Assembly (NCBI GenBank): GCA_044358435.1
Contig: JBIKNX010000001.1
Coordinates: 1 to 37,050, forward strand
Direction: 5' to 3'
Origin: Luteolibacter sp.
Lineage (GTDB): Bacteria > Verrucomicrobiota > Verrucomicrobiia > Verrucomicrobiales > Akkermansiaceae
DNA length: 37,050 bases
The position numbers and the translations under genes are program-made. Under the pieces are notes generated by a model. That model ran no database searches. It was given only the letters and a program-made list of their open reading frames with translations, and was not told the DNA's origin. Shown one piece after another: positions 1 through 37,050 of this stretch (the stretch's first letter is position 1; the number at the start of each line of letters is the position of its first letter).

Positions 1-30
1 CTCCGCTTCTCGGTCGCGAGGGGAGAAGAA

Positions 31-222
31 TTTAACCACGAAAAGCACGAAGGACACGAAAGGAAGATGAGTGCTGGGTGTGGTTTTGGATTTGTGGGTG
101 AAGATTGCAGGCGGCTCTACAGATATTAAAGTTGGCTATTTCAAGATTGTAGTCTCGGGTGAGAATTTCTCATGAACGTAATTTTTATTCCTTTCGTGGG
201 CTTCGTGCTTTTCGTGGCTAAA
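31..222. repeat. Gene-less inverted-repeat element A (MITE/REP-like; 35-bp arms of 9-nt CACGAA units)
   Basis: Arm 31-65 TTTAACCACGAAAAGCACGAAGGACACGAAAGGAA matches the reverse complement of 188-222 at 32/35 positions. Confidence 0.85.
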
Positions 223-259
223 AATTTCTTCGCCTACGCTATCGCGCACGATGAAAATG

Positions 260-2754: not shown

Positions 2755-3468
2755 CTACAATGCCCCGAACCTTCTGTGGCGGGACTTGTATTCTTCGACG
2801 GCGGCGAAGAGGTCGCCTTGGCGGAAGTCCGGCCACATTTTCCGGACAATGACGATTTCCGAGTAGGAGATCTGCCAGAGAAGGAAATTGGAAAGGCGCA
2901 TTTCGCCCGAGGTGCGGATGAGGAGGTCGGGATCGGGGATGTCTTTGGTATAGAGATGTCGGGCGATGAGTTCGCCATCGATCTTGTCCGGGGCGATTTC
3001 ACCCGCCACGGCGGCTTTGGCGATGGCACGGACGGCGGCGGTGATTTCCTCACGTGCGCCGTAGGAAAGGGCGAGAACCAGGGTTATGGTTTGATGGTTC
3101 CTGGTCTGCTCCTGGATGCGATCCAGGCGGTTGCGCGTGGCGGCAGGGAGGCGGTCCAGATCGCCGATGGCTTTGAGGCGGATGTTCTGTTTGTCCAGCT
3201 CGTCGGCCTTATCATCGAGAAACCGATCCAGCAGTTTCATCAGGGCATCGACTTCGTTCTTTGGGCGGTTCCAGTTTTCCGAGGAAAAGGCGTAAAGCGT
3301 GAGATATTTCACACCGAGCTCGATACAGGCTTCCGTGACCTCGCGGATGGATTCGGCTCCGGCGCGATGACCCTCCGCCCGCGGGAGTCCACGTTCTTTC
3401 GCCCAGCGGCCGTTGCCGTCCATGATGATAGCGATGTGGGAAACCTGATGGTGGTTGGATGAGGTCAT
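2755..3468 (-). CDS. uppS: Undecaprenyl diphosphate synthase (isoprenyl transferase)
   Basis: HIAIIMDGNGRWA, YAFSSENWNRP, PDLLIRTSGEMRLSNFLLWQ and C-terminal RRFG. Confidence 0.97.
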   Translation of the reverse strand: MTSSNHHQVSHIAIIMDGNGRWAKERGLPRAEGHRAGAESIREVTEACIELGVKYLTLYAFSSENWNRPKNEVDALMKLLDRFLDDKADELDKQNIRLKAIGDLDRLPAATRNRLDRIQEQTRNHQTITLVLALSYGAREEITAAVRAIAKAAVAGEIAPDKIDGELIARHLYTKDIPDPDLLIRTSGEMRLSNFLLWQISYSEIVIVRKMWPDFRQGDLFAAVEEYKSRHRRFGAL

Positions 3469-3890
3469 GGTTCGTTTTCGGGTTGGAACATGCCGCCGTA
3501 GCCGGGTTTGTAGAGGAATAGAGGGGAGTGTTGCGCGATGATTTCGAAGTGGTTATCAACGGTGTATAAACGGACGTCGTCTTGAATCGCGATGGTGGCG
3601 ATGAGGATATCCATCCAGGGAAGGGAATGTCCGTTTTCGCGCAAACGCCAAGCAAGGGAACGCGCGTTTTCCCAGTCCGATTCCCGACATTGGCGGTAGG
3701 GAATCAGGGAAAAATAGTAAGAAAGATGTTTGCGCTCGTTTACCTTAGAACCACCGAGAACTTCCAGTCGGACGGGAGAACACCATTGAGCTTCGTAAAC
3801 ATCAAGCAGGCCATCGAGGGCTCGCTTGACTTCGATGCGTCCTTTTTTTCGGAAGCTCTCCATCCATACCGATGAATCGACCAGAACCAT
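3465..3890 (-). CDS. vapC: PIN-domain toxin (VapC family)
   Basis: VLVDSSVW, EVL, DILIATIA and YTVDNHF acidic PIN motifs; immediately downstream of a small antitoxin-like gene. Confidence 0.9.
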   Translation of the reverse strand: MVLVDSSVWMESFRKKGRIEVKRALDGLLDVYEAQWCSPVRLEVLGGSKVNERKHLSYYFSLIPYRQCRESDWENARSLAWRLRENGHSLPWMDILIATIAIQDDVRLYTVDNHFEIIAQHSPLFLYKPGYGGMFQPENEP

Positions 3891-3891
3891 T

Positions 3892-4122
3892 TCAGTCAGG
3901 GATGTAAGGAGGGAATGGATTGGTAGGATCCTCGCCGTTGTCGGTAGCTGGATCGGGATAGTCGAATGCGCTTTCGCGGATCAAACGACCAAATTCCTTG
4001 GCGCGTGTGCGGCGGACAAAATCTGTTACGGCACGTGCGACCGCTGGACTCTTGTTTTTATCCCCAGTGATTTCCAATAGATCCGCCAAAATGGCTTCAT
4101 CAATGTCTACGGTGATTCTCAT
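3892..4122 (-). CDS. vapB: VapB-family antitoxin (ribbon-helix-helix-like)
   Basis: MRITVDIDEAIL...KSPAVARAV N-terminus; 76 aa; 1 nt upstream of the PIN gene. Confidence 0.85.
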   Translation of the reverse strand: MRITVDIDEAILADLLEITGDKNKSPAVARAVTDFVRRTRAKEFGRLIRESAFDYPDPATDNGEDPTNPFPPYIPD

Positions 4123-4183: not shown

Positions 4184-5452
4184 TCAGAGACGCAAAGTCT
4201 GCTTGCGATCCGGTCCGACGCCGACGAATGCGATGGGAGCGTCGCAAAGTTCCGAGAGACGGGTGAGGTAAGCTTGGGCGTTTGGCGGCAGTTGGTCGTA
4301 GCTGGTGCACTCGGTGGTATCCTGTATCCAGCCGGGGAGGGTTTCGTAAATCGGTTTCGCGCGATCCCAGAACGAGCGGTCGGCGGGTGGAAGCTCGTGT
4401 CTGGTTCCATCGATGTCGTAGGCAACGCAGATTTTCAGATCCTCATATTCGTCGAGGCCATCGACATTGGTGACGGCGAGACCGGTGACGCCGTTGACCA
4501 TACAGGCGAAGCGCAGCAGGACCGTATCGAGCCAACCGCAGCCACGCGGGCGCCCCGTGGTCGCTCCGAACTCGCGGCCGAGGTTGTGGAGGTATTCGGA
4601 GAGACCTTCATCGCAGGTTGGGAAAGGACCGGAGCCGACGCGGGTGGTGTAGGCTTTGCAGACGCCGATGACCGATTCGATGGCCGTCGGCGGCAAGCCG
4701 GTGCCGGTGGTGGAACCGCCGGCGGTGGTGTTGGAAGAAGTGACGAAGGGATACGTGCCGAAATCGATGTCGAGCAATGTGCCTTGTGCGCCTTCGAAAA
4801 GGAGGTTTTTCTTTGCCTTCCATGCTTTGTGGAGGACAGGAATCGTGTTGGTCACGTGGGGGCGGAGGCGCTCGAAGGCCGCGTAGGTATCGGTGATCAC
4901 GGCATCCGCATGAAAGGTAGGGAGATCGTATTTCACCAGAATTTCGTTCACCTCGGCAACGCGGCGGGTGATCTGAGCTTCGGCAAAAGGACGGTCCAAG
5001 AGATCCGCCATGCGCAGGCCGCAACGGTTGACCTTATCGGCGTATGCCGGCCCGATTCCGCGTTTTGTGGTTCCGATTTTCTGATCGCCCAGAGAGATTT
5101 CACGGGCGGCATCGAGTTCCTTGTGGAAAGGTAAAACGACGTGTGCGCGATCGGAAATCAGGAGTTTCTCAGGGCAGATTTCGATGCCTTGGGCTTCGAT
5201 GCGTTCGATTTCGATGCAGAGGCCGATGGGATCGACGACGACGCCGTTGCCGATGACGTTGATTTTGTGATCCCAGAGAATGCCGGAGGGAAGCAGGTGA
5301 AGGACGTATTTGGTGCCTTTGGCGATGACGGTGTGGCCGGCGTTGTTGCCGCCTTGGCCGCGGATGACGACATCGGCGGACTCGGTGAGGTAGTCAACGA
5401 TTTTGCCTTTGCCTTCGTCGCCCCATTGGAGGCCGGTGATAACAGTGTTCAT
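4184..5452 (-). CDS. purA: Adenylosuccinate synthetase
   Basis: GLQWGDEGKGKIVD, GGNNAGHT, GTTKRGIGPAY, EGAQG and GATTGRPRGCGW. ATG at 5452 preferred over TTG at 5461. Confidence 0.98.
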   Translation of the reverse strand: MNTVITGLQWGDEGKGKIVDYLTESADVVIRGQGGNNAGHTVIAKGTKYVLHLLPSGILWDHKINVIGNGVVVDPIGLCIEIERIEAQGIEICPEKLLISDRAHVVLPFHKELDAAREISLGDQKIGTTKRGIGPAYADKVNRCGLRMADLLDRPFAEAQITRRVAEVNEILVKYDLPTFHADAVITDTYAAFERLRPHVTNTIPVLHKAWKAKKNLLFEGAQGTLLDIDFGTYPFVTSSNTTAGGSTTGTGLPPTAIESVIGVCKAYTTRVGSGPFPTCDEGLSEYLHNLGREFGATTGRPRGCGWLDTVLLRFACMVNGVTGLAVTNVDGLDEYEDLKICVAYDIDGTRHELPPADRSFWDRAKPIYETLPGWIQDTTECTSYDQLPPNAQAYLTRLSELCDAPIAFVGVGPDRKQTLRL

Positions 5453-5465
5453 GAATTTCAAATTT

Positions 5466-5501
5466 TTAACCGCAAATGAACGCGGATTGTGGCTGATTTT
5501 T
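5466..5501. repeat. Extra partial repeat arm next to the GxxExxY cassette
   Basis: TTAACCGCAAATGAACGCGGAT (5466-5487) is a direct partial copy of the arm starting at 5516. Confidence 0.75.
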
Positions 5502-5515
5502 TGGGATGTGGAAAG

Positions 5516-5966
5516 TTAACCGCGAATGAACGCGAATGGACGCTAATGAAGATTGGGTGGGTTGGAGTCTTTGGAGAGAACGACTCGTTCCCATTCCAGT
5601 CGTGGATTCTTGAAATTGATGATGAGTCCCAGTGGGAGTTTTGTGACGCGCAAGTAGTTGAGAACCTGGCCACGCTCGATATCAGTAATGCGATCGATGG
5701 TTTTAGTTTCGACGATGATTTTTTCGTGGGCGATGAGGTCGGGAATAAATTCGCCGACTTTCACTTGTTTCCAACTGACTGGATATCTCGGTTGTTGGAG
5801 AAATGGAATTCCTCTAAAACCGAATTCTACAACAAGGGAGTTTTCATAAATTTTTTCGTTTAGGCCGTGGCCATGACCGTTGGATATCTCCAGCGCGCAG
5901 GAGATAATCCCAAAGACTTCGTCTTTGAAAATTAATTCGCGTTCATTCGCGTTCATTCGCGGTTAA
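5516..5966. mobile_element. Putative mobile cassette: GxxExxY nuclease gene between 32-bp terminal inverted repeats
   Basis: 5516-5547 TTAACCGCGAATGAACGCGAATGGACGCTAAT matches the reverse complement of 5935-5966 at 30/32. Both outer ends are TTAA. The interior is visibly AT-richer than the flanks. Mobility is inferred. Confidence 0.65.
5543..5956 (-). CDS. GxxExxY protein (PD-(D/E)xK nuclease superfamily)
   Basis: GLNEKIY signature; PDLIAHEKIIVETK catalytic-type motif; QVLNYL and GLIINF. Confidence 0.93.
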   Translation of the reverse strand: MNANERELIFKDEVFGIISCALEISNGHGHGLNEKIYENSLVVEFGFRGIPFLQQPRYPVSWKQVKVGEFIPDLIAHEKIIVETKTIDRITDIERGQVLNYLRVTKLPLGLIINFKNPRLEWERVVLSKDSNPPNLH

Positions 5967-7110
5967 TCTTACTTGTCTCGATGAGTTCGGCGAAGTCGGT
6001 GAAAAAGTGAGACGCGTCATTCGGGCCGGGGGCGGCTTCCGGGTGGTATTGCACGGAGAAGATCGGCAGGGATTTGTGGCGCATGCCTTCGACGGTGTTG
6101 TCGTTGAGGTTGATGTGGGTGACTTCGATGTCGGCCGGTAGGGAATCGGGATCGACAGCAAAGCCGTGGTTTTGCGAGGTGATGGAGATTCTACCGGTGC
6201 GGAGATCTTTGACGGGTTGATTTCCGCCGCGATGACCGAATTTGAGTTTGAAGGTTTTTCCGCCGTAGGCGTGGGCGAGAAGTTGGTTGCCAAGGCAGAT
6301 GCCAAAAGTGGGGAGCCGGGTGATGAGTTGTTTGAGTTCCTTGTGAACGTAATCGAGCGCAGCCGGATCTCCGGGGCCGTTGGTGAGAAACAGACCGTCG
6401 GGGTTTTTCGCGAGGATTTCATCAGCGGAGGTTGTGGCTGGAACCACCTCGACCTCGAAGCCTGCCTGGCGCAGCATGCGGAGTTGGTTGAATTTCAGAC
6501 CGAAGTCGATGGCCACGACGCGGTATTTGACAGGTGGCAGTTCTTGGTAAGTTTCGGTTTCACCGATGGATGCGTTGGGAAGAGTCCATTTGCGGGATTC
6601 CTCCGACCAGAAGTAGGAGTGTTTGGTGGTGACTTCTTTGACGAAATCGGAGCCTTCCATCGGTGTGGAGTTTTTGGCAGCGGCGATGGCATCGGCTTCG
6701 GAAAGTTCGGTCGTGACGCAGGCGCGCATCGCGCCGAGTGAGCGAAGGTGTTTGGTGAGGGCCCGGGTGTCGATTCCTTCGATGCCGAGGATATCGTGGC
6801 GATGAAGATAAGAGGAAAGGCTTTCTTGGGAGCGCCAGTTTGACGGAATTTCACACAGCTCGCCGATGACAAACGCACGGATGTGAGGGCCTGCGGATTC
6901 GTTGTCTTCCTGGTTCACCCCGTAGTTGCCAATCATCGGGTAAGTCATCGCGACGATCTGGCCGCGGTAAGAAGGATCGGTGATCACTTCTTGATAACCT
7001 GTCATGGAGGTGTTGAAGCAAATTTCTCCGGTAGTGGTTCCGCTGGCTCCGAAAGAAATTCCGGAAAAGCAGCGTCCGTCTTCGAGGGCAAGGATAGCGG
7101 TCGTGGGCAC
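5953..7110 (-). CDS. carA: Carbamoyl-phosphate synthase small subunit
   Basis: GEICFNTSMTGYQEVITDPSY, NGPGDP, GICLG (catalytic Cys) and QYHPEAAPGP. GTG at 7110 is the likely start. Confidence 0.97.
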   Translation of the reverse strand: MPTTAILALEDGRCFSGISFGASGTTTGEICFNTSMTGYQEVITDPSYRGQIVAMTYPMIGNYGVNQEDNESAGPHIRAFVIGELCEIPSNWRSQESLSSYLHRHDILGIEGIDTRALTKHLRSLGAMRACVTTELSEADAIAAAKNSTPMEGSDFVKEVTTKHSYFWSEESRKWTLPNASIGETETYQELPPVKYRVVAIDFGLKFNQLRMLRQAGFEVEVVPATTSADEILAKNPDGLFLTNGPGDPAALDYVHKELKQLITRLPTFGICLGNQLLAHAYGGKTFKLKFGHRGGNQPVKDLRTGRISITSQNHGFAVDPDSLPADIEVTHINLNDNTVEGMRHKSLPIFSVQYHPEAAPGPNDASHFFTDFAELIETSKINRE

Positions 7111-7226
7111 GGGGCGGGAGGTTATGTACCTCAGGCGCGGGATGGAACACAAAATTTCAGGATAATTTTCGGAGTTTGGATCTTTTAACTCTGGGTCTAC
7201 AGTTGGCGGGCATATCGAGTGTGTTT

Positions 7227-7355
7227 AACCACGGAATGCACGGAATACACGGAGAAAGACAATACCGAAGGCTTGGAAACTAGCTTAACTCCATGGGTGT
7301 AATTGGGGTTCATGAAAGCCTTATCCATTCCGTGTACTCCGTGCATTCCGTGGTT
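7227..7355. repeat. Gene-less inverted-repeat element C (27-bp arms of 9-nt CACGGAAT units)
   Basis: 7227-7253 AACCACGGAATGCACGGAATACACGGA matches the reverse complement of 7329-7355 at 26/27; lies between divergent genes. Confidence 0.85.
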
Positions 7356-7451
7356 TGACATGCAGATTCGGGGTTTCACTTCTTGAATAGGGTGGATGGG
7401 GCTTTTGATGAAAGGGGTTGCAAACTCCTGCGGTGTATTGGAAACACCGGG

Positions 7452-27849: not shown

Positions 27850-27967
27850 AACCACGGATGAACGGAGATGGACGCGGATTGTAAGAGATTTTTGTAAATC
27901 TATTTCCCACCGATTGGTTGAGAGACAAGGTATTCAACTCTTTGATTATCTGTGTCTATCTGCGGTT
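27850..27967. repeat. Degenerate gene-less inverted-repeat element D (10-nt units)
   Basis: Left arm AACCACGGATGAACGGAGATGGACGCGGAT (27850-27879); right arm ATCTGTGTCTATCTGCGGTT (27948-27967); between convergent genes. Confidence 0.65.
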
Positions 27968-36772: not shown

Positions 36773-37050
36773 CGTTTGCTGATTGCTGGAGACGGATCTT
36801 CCTATCCGCCCATGCCAAGCCTGCAAAGGAAATTAAGGCTTCCGCCGTTGTTGCAGGGTTTTGAGCGAGACGCGCGGACGAAGCATGTGGACTCCGTAAA
36901 TCCAACCCACCAACGAGCCTCCCAAGTGGCAGGCATGATCCTAAAGAGGAAAATGGAAATCTGGTCATCACGGGCTAAGTATTGTAACTACGGGGAATGG
37001 ATACCTCAAAGTCGCCGATTTCTCTTCACCCAAAAGGTGAGTTAGAAAAT

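What the first reader, a model, noticed from the sequence alone, without database searches (positions are those of the whole stretch)
5516..5966. GxxExxY nuclease gene packaged exactly between 32-bp terminal inverted repeats: candidate non-canonical mobile element
Seen: the 137-aa gene fills the whole space between two arms that match at 30/32 and both end in TTAA. Its ATG lies inside one arm and its TAG inside the other, where one of the two arm mismatches (CGCTAAT vs CGCGAAT) creates that stop. It sits between the housekeeping genes carA and purA. Known: GxxExxY proteins are PD-(D/E)xK-like and, to my knowledge, have no established function. Inference: this 451-bp unit is a minimal mobile element whose enzyme is not a DDE, HUH, Tyr or Ser transposase, and the repeats are its recognition sites.
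Basis: partly seen in the sequence, partly recalled or inferred. Interest (0 to 1): 0.85.

Follow-up and report, generated by a model that had tools for sequence, protein, structure and literature searches.

The report
Nuclease cassette with matching repeat arms
A small nuclease-like gene of unknown function sits between mirror-image repeat arms at one spot in many related lake bacteria, the same arms occur without the gene at dozens of other sites, and near-identical relatives of the gene sit with their arms at different sites, so this is likely an undescribed kind of mobile DNA whose enzyme is predicted to act on its own repeats.

Summary
Observation confirmed: arms match 30/32, start and stop lie inside them, and the upstream arm also holds carA's stop. 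The arms are three tandem 10-bp boxes, shared with about 40 gene-less elements in this genome. The reading is partly supported. For: 143 of 150 GxxExxY genes have such arms (0 of 150 random sites); a sister clade has 90-94% identical genes plus arms at different sites; extra arms of this type follow this gene clade across genomes (20 of 22 vs 7 of 29); the catalytic residues are intact under purifying selection. Against: this clade is locked at carA-purA (19 of 19 checked) and is swapped in place between species; TTAA is not a target duplication; the only provably recent copying of arms used IS1380-type ends; non-nuclease four-helix-bundle genes share the design; a second clade's specificity test was inconclusive. 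No cleavage or movement by the enzyme is shown. Best reading: a RAYT/REPIN- or Ssn-like system built on a RecB/Cas4-like nuclease. Not found in print (9 searches); the scan noted the gene-plus-arms design before in other genomes.

The parts
5543..5956 (-). GxxExxY gene, 137 aa, PD-(D/E)xK fold with E34, P72-D73, E83-x-K85 and Q97-xxx-Y101
5935..5966 (-). Upstream arm: AACC plus three 10-bp boxes; holds carA's stop (5955-5953) overlapping the gene's ATG (5956)
5516..5547 (+). Downstream arm; third box is the CGCTAAT variant, which supplies this lineage's TAG
5466..5487 (+). Partial extra copy of the downstream arm just before purA, seen only in the closest relatives
5953..7152 (-). carA (host gene); its last codons lie inside the upstream arm
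4184..5452 (-). purA (host gene), ATG at 5452
24..229 (.). Gene-less element of the same family, 9-bp CACGAA-type boxes
7222..7360 (.). Gene-less element of the same family, 9-bp CACGGA-type boxes, upstream of carA
27850..27967 (.). Degenerate gene-less element, 10-bp boxes
36940..37050 (+). End of a high-copy IS1380-type insertion sequence (not part of the cassette; candidate helper for some gene-less copies)

Best explanation
This is a long-resident copy of a widespread gene-plus-arms cassette whose small RecB/Cas4-like nuclease likely recognises the tandem boxes of its own arm type and is predicted to drive, with host repair, the spread and replacement of arm-bounded DNA. Shown: the arms bound the unit; the gene is coupled to carA by an ATGA overlap supplied by the arm; it is under purifying selection; the unit is gained, lost and swapped between species at carA-purA; gene-less arm pairs with unrelated spacers come, go and replace each other at gene junctions; a sister clade occupies several sites. 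Inferred: the protein binds the boxes as DNA (three boxes about one helical turn apart), nicks or cuts near the outer CC/GG ends, and recombination or repair then pastes the unit at an AT-rich gene junction or over a resident hairpin without a target duplication. It would work like RAYT/REPIN or Ssn/SRM, with a different enzyme family.
For: Arms at 143 of 150 genes vs 0 of 150 random sites. Arm period needs 25 changes on the protein tree vs 60.3 shuffled. Eight site groups in a sister clade, cross-site identity up to 94% protein and 89% DNA, ends in register at the arms. Gene count vs arm count over 121 genomes: Spearman 0.64, control pattern 0.05; 10 gene-less genomes have median 4 arms. Three or more extra arms of this type in 20 of 22 genomes with this clade vs 7 of 29 arm-rich genomes without a relative; these arms do not follow a second clade (p = 0.12). 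dN/dS 0.03-0.17 where dS is measurable. Catalytic residues invariant in 50 sequences except E83; model pLDDT 93.7, best matches Cas4 SSO0001 and lambda exonuclease. No G-U bias between arms (120 vs 119), as expected for DNA sites. Cassette dS 0.17 vs 0.91 carA and 0.66 purA between G000 and G003, 7th lowest of 1,463 windows. None of 8 scored Y1 transposase genes of G000 has this arm pair as its best inverted repeat.
Against: No binding, cleavage or transposition event was observed. This clade has not moved in 19 of 19 close homologues. The only identical multi-copy arm pairs in G000 carry IS1380-type ends and 5-bp duplications. Four-helix-bundle genes, not known nucleases, have inverted tandem-word arms in 23 of 30 cases, so the design does not need a nuclease. 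The second clade's arms followed both clades and did not separate A-only from B-only genomes (p = 0.58). Seven genomes with no close relative of the gene have 5-29 arms of this type. Genomes are kin, so the p-values overstate. Host slices of equal length also reject the host tree (delta logL 24-45 vs 101 for the cassette), so recombination is common here anyway. No joint joining carA to purA is among the listed joints of 4 DNA runs.
Confidence: 0.5

Rival explanations
1. The arms are moved by something else (IS1380-type transposases for some copies, an unknown shared factor or plain recombination for the rest), and GxxExxY is a passenger that may bind or cut its arms for another purpose, such as autoregulation or Ssn-like control of incoming DNA.
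For: IS ends fused to arm pairs with 5-bp duplications in G000 (5 exact and 1 near-exact complete copies) and in three other species; a full 1,717-bp IS with these ends encodes DDE_Tnp_1_4; related 140-bp copies in G080, G068 and G094 have IS-like outer ends. Four-helix-bundle genes share the design. One arm pair encloses unrelated DNA (L337). Several gene-free carA-purA junctions hold other tandem-word hairpins (read by eye).
Against: IS ends explain 10 of 57 end matches and a minority of arm pairs in G000; the window unit and the sister-clade cassettes show no IS ends in their printed flanks and no duplication. Type-specific tracking of extra arms by this clade is not expected from an indifferent helper.
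Confidence: 0.3
2. The unit works at RNA level like an ORF-bearing rRNA intervening sequence: the arms pair into a long stem in the carA-purA transcript, RNase III would cut it out, and the unit spreads by ordinary homologous recombination.
For: A near-perfect stem of about 30 bp is predicted. Elements lie at gene junctions, 0 of 22 between convergent genes (crude gene calls, p about 0.02). Contigs in two RNA runs bridge the gene and the start of purA (not proof of transcription). The Coxiella IVS has this layout (PMC4990558, abstract).
Against: No bias to G-U pairs on the coding strand (120 vs 119). Box sequence, not only pairing, is conserved within protein clades across phyla. It does not explain new sites. 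No Rfam match.
Confidence: 0.12
3. The gene is a domesticated, vertically inherited host factor tied to carA and purA, and the arms are local regulatory sites.
For: Long residence at one site, purifying selection, translational coupling to carA.
Against: Absent from 15 of 28 scored junctions, scattered over the host tree, frameshifted in 2 of 13 carriers; family members occupy 51 distinct sites among 112 loci; cassette tree conflicts with the host tree.
Confidence: 0.08

Closest known systems
RAYT / REPIN systems and TIRtrons (PMC3116915 passages; bioRxiv 10.1101/2021.07.10.451892 abstract and section 4; PMC3733652 passages)
   Same: A conserved gene that stays at one extragenic site, flanked by inverted repeats, with gene-less inverted doublets of about 100-140 bp that have conserved ends and variable spacers.
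   Different: Enzyme is PD-(D/E)xK, not HUH/Y1; arms are tandem 8-10-bp boxes; up to 9 clades per genome; the gene tree conflicts with the host tree and sister clades occupy new sites, whereas RAYTs are described as vertical and non-jumping.
Ssn nucleases with NTS/SRM repeats (PMC11893778; abstract, sections 7, 8, 12)
   Same: Single-domain small nuclease gene flanked on both sides by a cognate repeat that is also dispersed in the genome; many enzyme-repeat pairs.
   Different: GIY-YIG versus PD-(D/E)xK fold; SRMs are single hairpins, these arms are tandem boxes; two-sided flanking is 42% for Ssn and 143 of 150 here; activity is shown for Ssn, untested here.
IS1380-family insertion sequences such as ISEcp1 and their MITEs (PMC7864471 passages)
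   Same: Two gene-less arm families in this genome have CCTA...TAGG ends and 5-bp duplications.
   Different: The GxxExxY unit itself has no such ends, no duplication and no DDE domain.
ORF-bearing 23S rRNA intervening sequences (PMC4990558, abstract)
   Same: Small ORF inside a long predicted stem, patchy and horizontally acquired; four-helix-bundle genes (the IVS protein type, recalled) show the same arm design in this genus.
   Different: Located between protein genes; nuclease cargo; no G-U bias; many dispersed gene-less copies.
PDDEXK_3 / PF13366 / TIGR04256 family (PMC3424549, table row)
   Same: This protein is a member; the paper lists function unknown and multiple transfers.
   Different: The row read mentions no flanking repeats or mobility.

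Membership tests
GxxExxY (TIGR04256 / PF13366) | Score above curated cut-off and GxxExxY motif | tested here: met
   117.8 vs 35 bits and 107.1 vs 22 bits; G31, E34, Y37
PD-(D/E)xK nucleases, RecB/Cas4-like | Fold and E, PD, ExK, QxxxY residues (motif names recalled) | tested here: met
   Foldseek E 2.3e-4 and Z 8.2 (rmsd 3.5, 106 aligned) to Cas4 SSO0001; residues
PD-(D/E)xK nucleases, RecB/Cas4-like | Nuclease activity | not testable with these tools
   needs purified protein
DDE insertion sequence or MITE | Terminal inverted repeats | tested here: met
   30 of 32
DDE insertion sequence or MITE | Target-site duplication | tested here: not met
   Non-palindromic outer 4-mers: 3 direct vs 13 inverted of 73; longest direct repeat in the window's outer flanks 4 nt
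DDE insertion sequence or MITE | DDE transposase inside the unit | tested here: not met
   Only PF13366 hit
RAYT / REPIN | HUH/Y1 transposase | tested here: not met
RAYT / REPIN | Gene-less inverted doublets with conserved ends and variable spacer | tested here: met
RAYT / REPIN | Gene fixed at one site with host-congruent tree | tested here: inconclusive
   Fixed site met for this clade; congruence rejected, but host slices are also incongruent; sister clade at several sites
Ssn / SRM | GIY-YIG domain | tested here: not met
Ssn / SRM | Cognate repeat on both sides of the gene and dispersed in the genome | tested here: met
Ssn / SRM | Site-specific ssDNA cleavage | not testable with these tools
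   needs biochemistry
rRNA intervening sequence | Located in rRNA | tested here: not met
   between carA and purA; no Rfam match of note
rRNA intervening sequence | RNase III excision | not testable with these tools
   only contigs were available for RNA runs
Free-standing homing endonuclease | Site-locked gene exchanged with flanking co-conversion | tested here: inconclusive
   95-97% identity across the unit vs 75-90% in most flank windows for G000/G003; 29 of 1,463 windows elsewhere included are also low
Free-standing homing endonuclease | Cleavage of the empty allele | not testable with these tools
   needs biochemistry

The most novel reading that the evidence does not exclude
GxxExxY proteins are the mobilising enzymes of a very large, undescribed class of mobile elements: a 130-aa RecB/Cas4-like nuclease reads a clade-specific array of DNA boxes, moves itself and gene-less arm pairs into gene junctions without target duplication, and overwrites resident elements in place. 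With 19,224 clusters at 50% identity this would be a fifth transposition chemistry and a large natural set of tiny sequence-specific nucleases with their targets written beside each gene.
Probability: 0.35. Interest if true: 0.92.

Novelty: new variant of a known kind. Interest (0 to 1): 0.72.

Why it matters
GxxExxY is a very large family without a known function. Each gene carries its predicted substrate beside it, so binding and cleavage can be tested at once with cognate and non-cognate arms. If the enzyme moves the unit, it is a transposition route outside DDE, HUH, Tyr and Ser enzymes. If it does not, the shared design of nuclease and non-nuclease cassettes still points to an unknown process that fills and refills gene junctions with arm-bounded DNA. 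This locus adds population-level evidence: long residence, purifying selection, swapping between species and type-specific tracking of gene-less copies.

Tried and rejected
TTAA as a piggyBac-like target duplication: rejected. A general target duplication outside the arms: longest direct repeat of 7 or more in 10% of 107 loci vs 5.5% shuffled, no fixed length; single filled/empty pairs showed 7-nt repeats that could be duplication or microhomology (L058, L317). The arm mismatch as a designed stop: rejected. Gene-less elements as internal deletions of the gene: spacers of 11 elements showed no similarity to the gene interior (best z 2.8). A resident RAYT with these arms: not found among 8 scored of 9 distinct Y1 loci in G000. 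IS1380 transposase in G000: no match, but 47 IS ends all run off contig ends, so the IS is probably unassembled. Arms as recombination hot spots: low divergence was enriched only near sites shared by both genomes (8 of 40 windows, about three sites, vs 19 of 1,076 far) and not near unshared ones (0 of 34, 2 of 93), which ascertainment can explain. Single-sequence folding failed (pLDDT 29.7); the alignment-based model was used. The homodimer job gave no answer. No PHROGs, PADLOC or PDB sequence match. Promoter and terminator scans were at chance level. The duplication-finding pattern matched nothing because it was too strict; duplications were read. The careful protein tree did not finish; the quick tree was used. 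Literature: 9 searches found no paper linking GxxExxY or PF13366 to repeats; the library lacks most subscription papers and no supplements were read.

Full report
1. Observation. The arms at 5516-5547 and 5935-5966 match at 30 of 32 positions, the 137-aa ORF starts in one arm and stops in the other, and the T at 5544 makes the TAG. The protein is a GxxExxY / PF13366 member between carA and purA. Close relatives are titled Luteolibacter or Akkermansiaceae. Each arm is AACC plus three tandem 10-bp boxes. The upstream arm also holds carA's stop, which overlaps the gene's ATG; in the 14 further close orthologues the ATG is likewise in the first box. A partial third arm lies at 5466-5487.

2. The arms are a dispersed family. 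G000 has 8 GxxExxY genes by tblastn (9 matches by profile); the printed flanks of all 8 show arms, of several box types. One search gave 69 raw arm pairs, which reduce to 36 distinct gene-less sites listed, two more found there, and 6 complete IS-ended copies. Eleven gene-less elements of the window's box type are mostly 127-149 bp, 8 carry the CGCTAAT third box, and their AT-rich spacers resemble neither each other nor the gene. They are labile: of 18 sites in G003, 4 could not be scored, 2 faced large unaligned inserts, 8 were absent in G000 and 4 held a different element. Of 33 sites in two closer species the script scored 13 unscorable, 13 with an arm motif in both and 7 without one in G000. 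At the C173 and C72 slots the spacers of G000 and G003 are unrelated (z -0.6 and 1.1), so whole elements were replaced.

3. The protein. With a 50-sequence alignment the model has pLDDT 93.7. Best structural matches are Cas4 SSO0001 (E 2.3e-4; Z 8.2, rmsd 3.5, 106 aligned), lambda exonuclease and other PD-(D/E)xK proteins. E34, D73, K85, Q97 and Y101 are invariant and E83 is present. The family has 19,224 clusters at E 1e-10, with two-domain forms among the top hits.

4. Family-level link. Of 159 loci searched, 152 genes passed the filters, 6 ORFs lacked the motif and 2 had short flanks; 143 of 150 scored genes have an inverted-repeat score of 14 or more, against 0 of 150 random site pairs. 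The set is biased to this genus and to relatives of the query; 118 remain below 90% identity. Arm period needs 25 changes on the quick tree against 60.3 shuffled; this shows co-inheritance, not recognition. Over 121 genomes, gene count and arm count correlate (0.64; 0.48 after removing two arms per gene; control 0.05). For this box type, 20 of 22 genomes with the clade have three or more extra arms against 7 of 29 arm-rich genomes with no relative. The cross-control was one-sided: these arms did not follow a second clade (p = 0.12), but that clade's arms followed both clades (p = 2e-4 and 0.004) and did not separate A-only from B-only genomes (p = 0.58); two frameshifted carriers were left out. 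Kin are not independent.

5. Mobility. In a sister clade, genes 90-94% identical lie in eight site groups, in most of them with the arms in register between an upstream stop and a downstream start; over all 112 loci with both flanks there are 51 sites and 31 cross-site pairs at 90% or more. So gene plus arms moves as a unit in the family. The window's clade does not: 19 of 19 checked of 20 homologues at 66% or more are at carA-purA. Of 28 scored junctions (30 best DNA matches of 61 genomes, 2 lacking carA in the locus), 13 hold the gene, 2 of them frameshifted, 1 holds a single arm and 14 hold neither, several with other tandem-word hairpins. Carriers are scattered over the host tree, and the cassette rejects the host topology (delta logL 101, AU p = 1.7e-9), though four host slices of the same length also reject it (24-45). 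Between G000 and G003 the gene's dS is 0.17 against 0.91 and 0.66 for carA and purA, 7th lowest of 1,463 windows from 627 kb of G003's 2.3 Mb, where 29 windows are low. dN/dS is 0.03-0.17 where measurable. The picture is old residence, repeated loss and swapping in place.

6. Ends. There is no target duplication: TTAA is the soft outer edge of the repeat (97 of 302 ends; both ends in 19 of 151 elements), and non-palindromic outer 4-mers are inverted (13 of 73) more than direct (3 of 73). Mismatches between arms show no G-U bias (120 vs 119).

7. Evidence against the enzyme as mover. Two 164-bp families of near-identical gene-less copies in G000 have CCTA...TAGG ends just outside the arms and 5-bp duplications. 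The same ends occur 47 times at contig ends, a full 1,717-bp element with them in G083 encodes an IS1380-type DDE protein, and ISEcp1 has similar ends and 5-bp duplications (PMC7864471, passages). Such fusions occur in other species. Four-helix-bundle genes have inverted tandem-word arms of their own in 23 of 30 cases. One arm pair encloses unrelated DNA. In four DNA runs no listed joint joins carA to purA. Contigs in two of four RNA runs bridge the gene and purA, which does not prove transcription.

8. Mechanism. I favour (0.5) a resident nuclease that recognises its own boxes in DNA and, with host repair, spreads and replaces arm-bounded units. Binding, cutting and the insertion step are all inferred. 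A passenger model (0.3), an RNA-stem model (0.12) and a host-factor model (0.08) remain.

9. Comparison. It works like RAYT/REPIN (PMC3116915 passages; bioRxiv 10.1101/2021.07.10.451892 abstract and section 4; PMC3733652 passages) and Ssn/SRM (PMC11893778 abstract and sections 7, 8, 12) but fails their enzyme tests, and it is not an IS or MITE. PMC3424549 (table row) lists PF13366 as unknown with multiple transfers. Nine searches found no account of these arms; the two papers naming GxxExxY were seen as listings only. Earlier scan notes describe the same design and the IS1380 fusion in other genomes; I found both here before reading those notes, and took from them the leads to the Ssn and TIRtron papers and the IVS comparison.

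10. Verdict. Real, apparently undescribed in print, a new variant of the gene-plus-cognate-repeat kind; interest 0.72. The boldest reading, a new transposition chemistry, has probability about 0.35.

Noticed in passing
window 36940-37050 and 46 other contig ends of G000: Ends of a high-copy IS1380-type element, unassembled, with an N-T-(T/A/C/G)-A-N target preference; its ends are fused to arm pairs to form two MITE families whose spacers resemble the IS left end (z 3.4 and 5.5).
   Followed up: yes
L371-L400: Four-helix-bundle (TIGR02436) genes in this genus are bounded by inverted arms of tandem, mostly 7-bp words in 23 of 30 cases, each with its own word.
   Followed up: partly
L015, L016, L019, L025, L026, L027, L029 carA-purA junction: Junctions without the gene often hold other tandem-word hairpins or tracts, as if the site is a slot refilled by different repeat families (read by eye).
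   Followed up: partly
Not retrievable.
   Followed up: no
L337 about 1500-2020: A 515-bp arm pair encloses short unrelated ORFs instead of GxxExxY and is absent at the orthologous G000 site.
   Followed up: partly
G000 gene-less elements; L401-L420: Lengths of gene-less elements of this box type cluster at about 135-140 and 108 bp although most spacers are unrelated.
   Followed up: partly
L415, L420, L053, L059, G000 C91: A recurring motif close to GGCGATCAAGCTAGGGA lies just outside several arms and may be the end of another element.
   Followed up: no
window 3465-4122: VapBC-like toxin-antitoxin pair directly downstream of purA.
   Followed up: no
L095 (G000 C2 8400-11900): Two GxxExxY genes and several arm pairs surround a DNA methyltransferase-like ORF whose N-terminus includes arm-derived sequence.
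   Followed up: no
G000 C97, C290, C186: Y1 transposase genes with their own inverted repeats, unrelated to the GxxExxY arms.
   Followed up: partly
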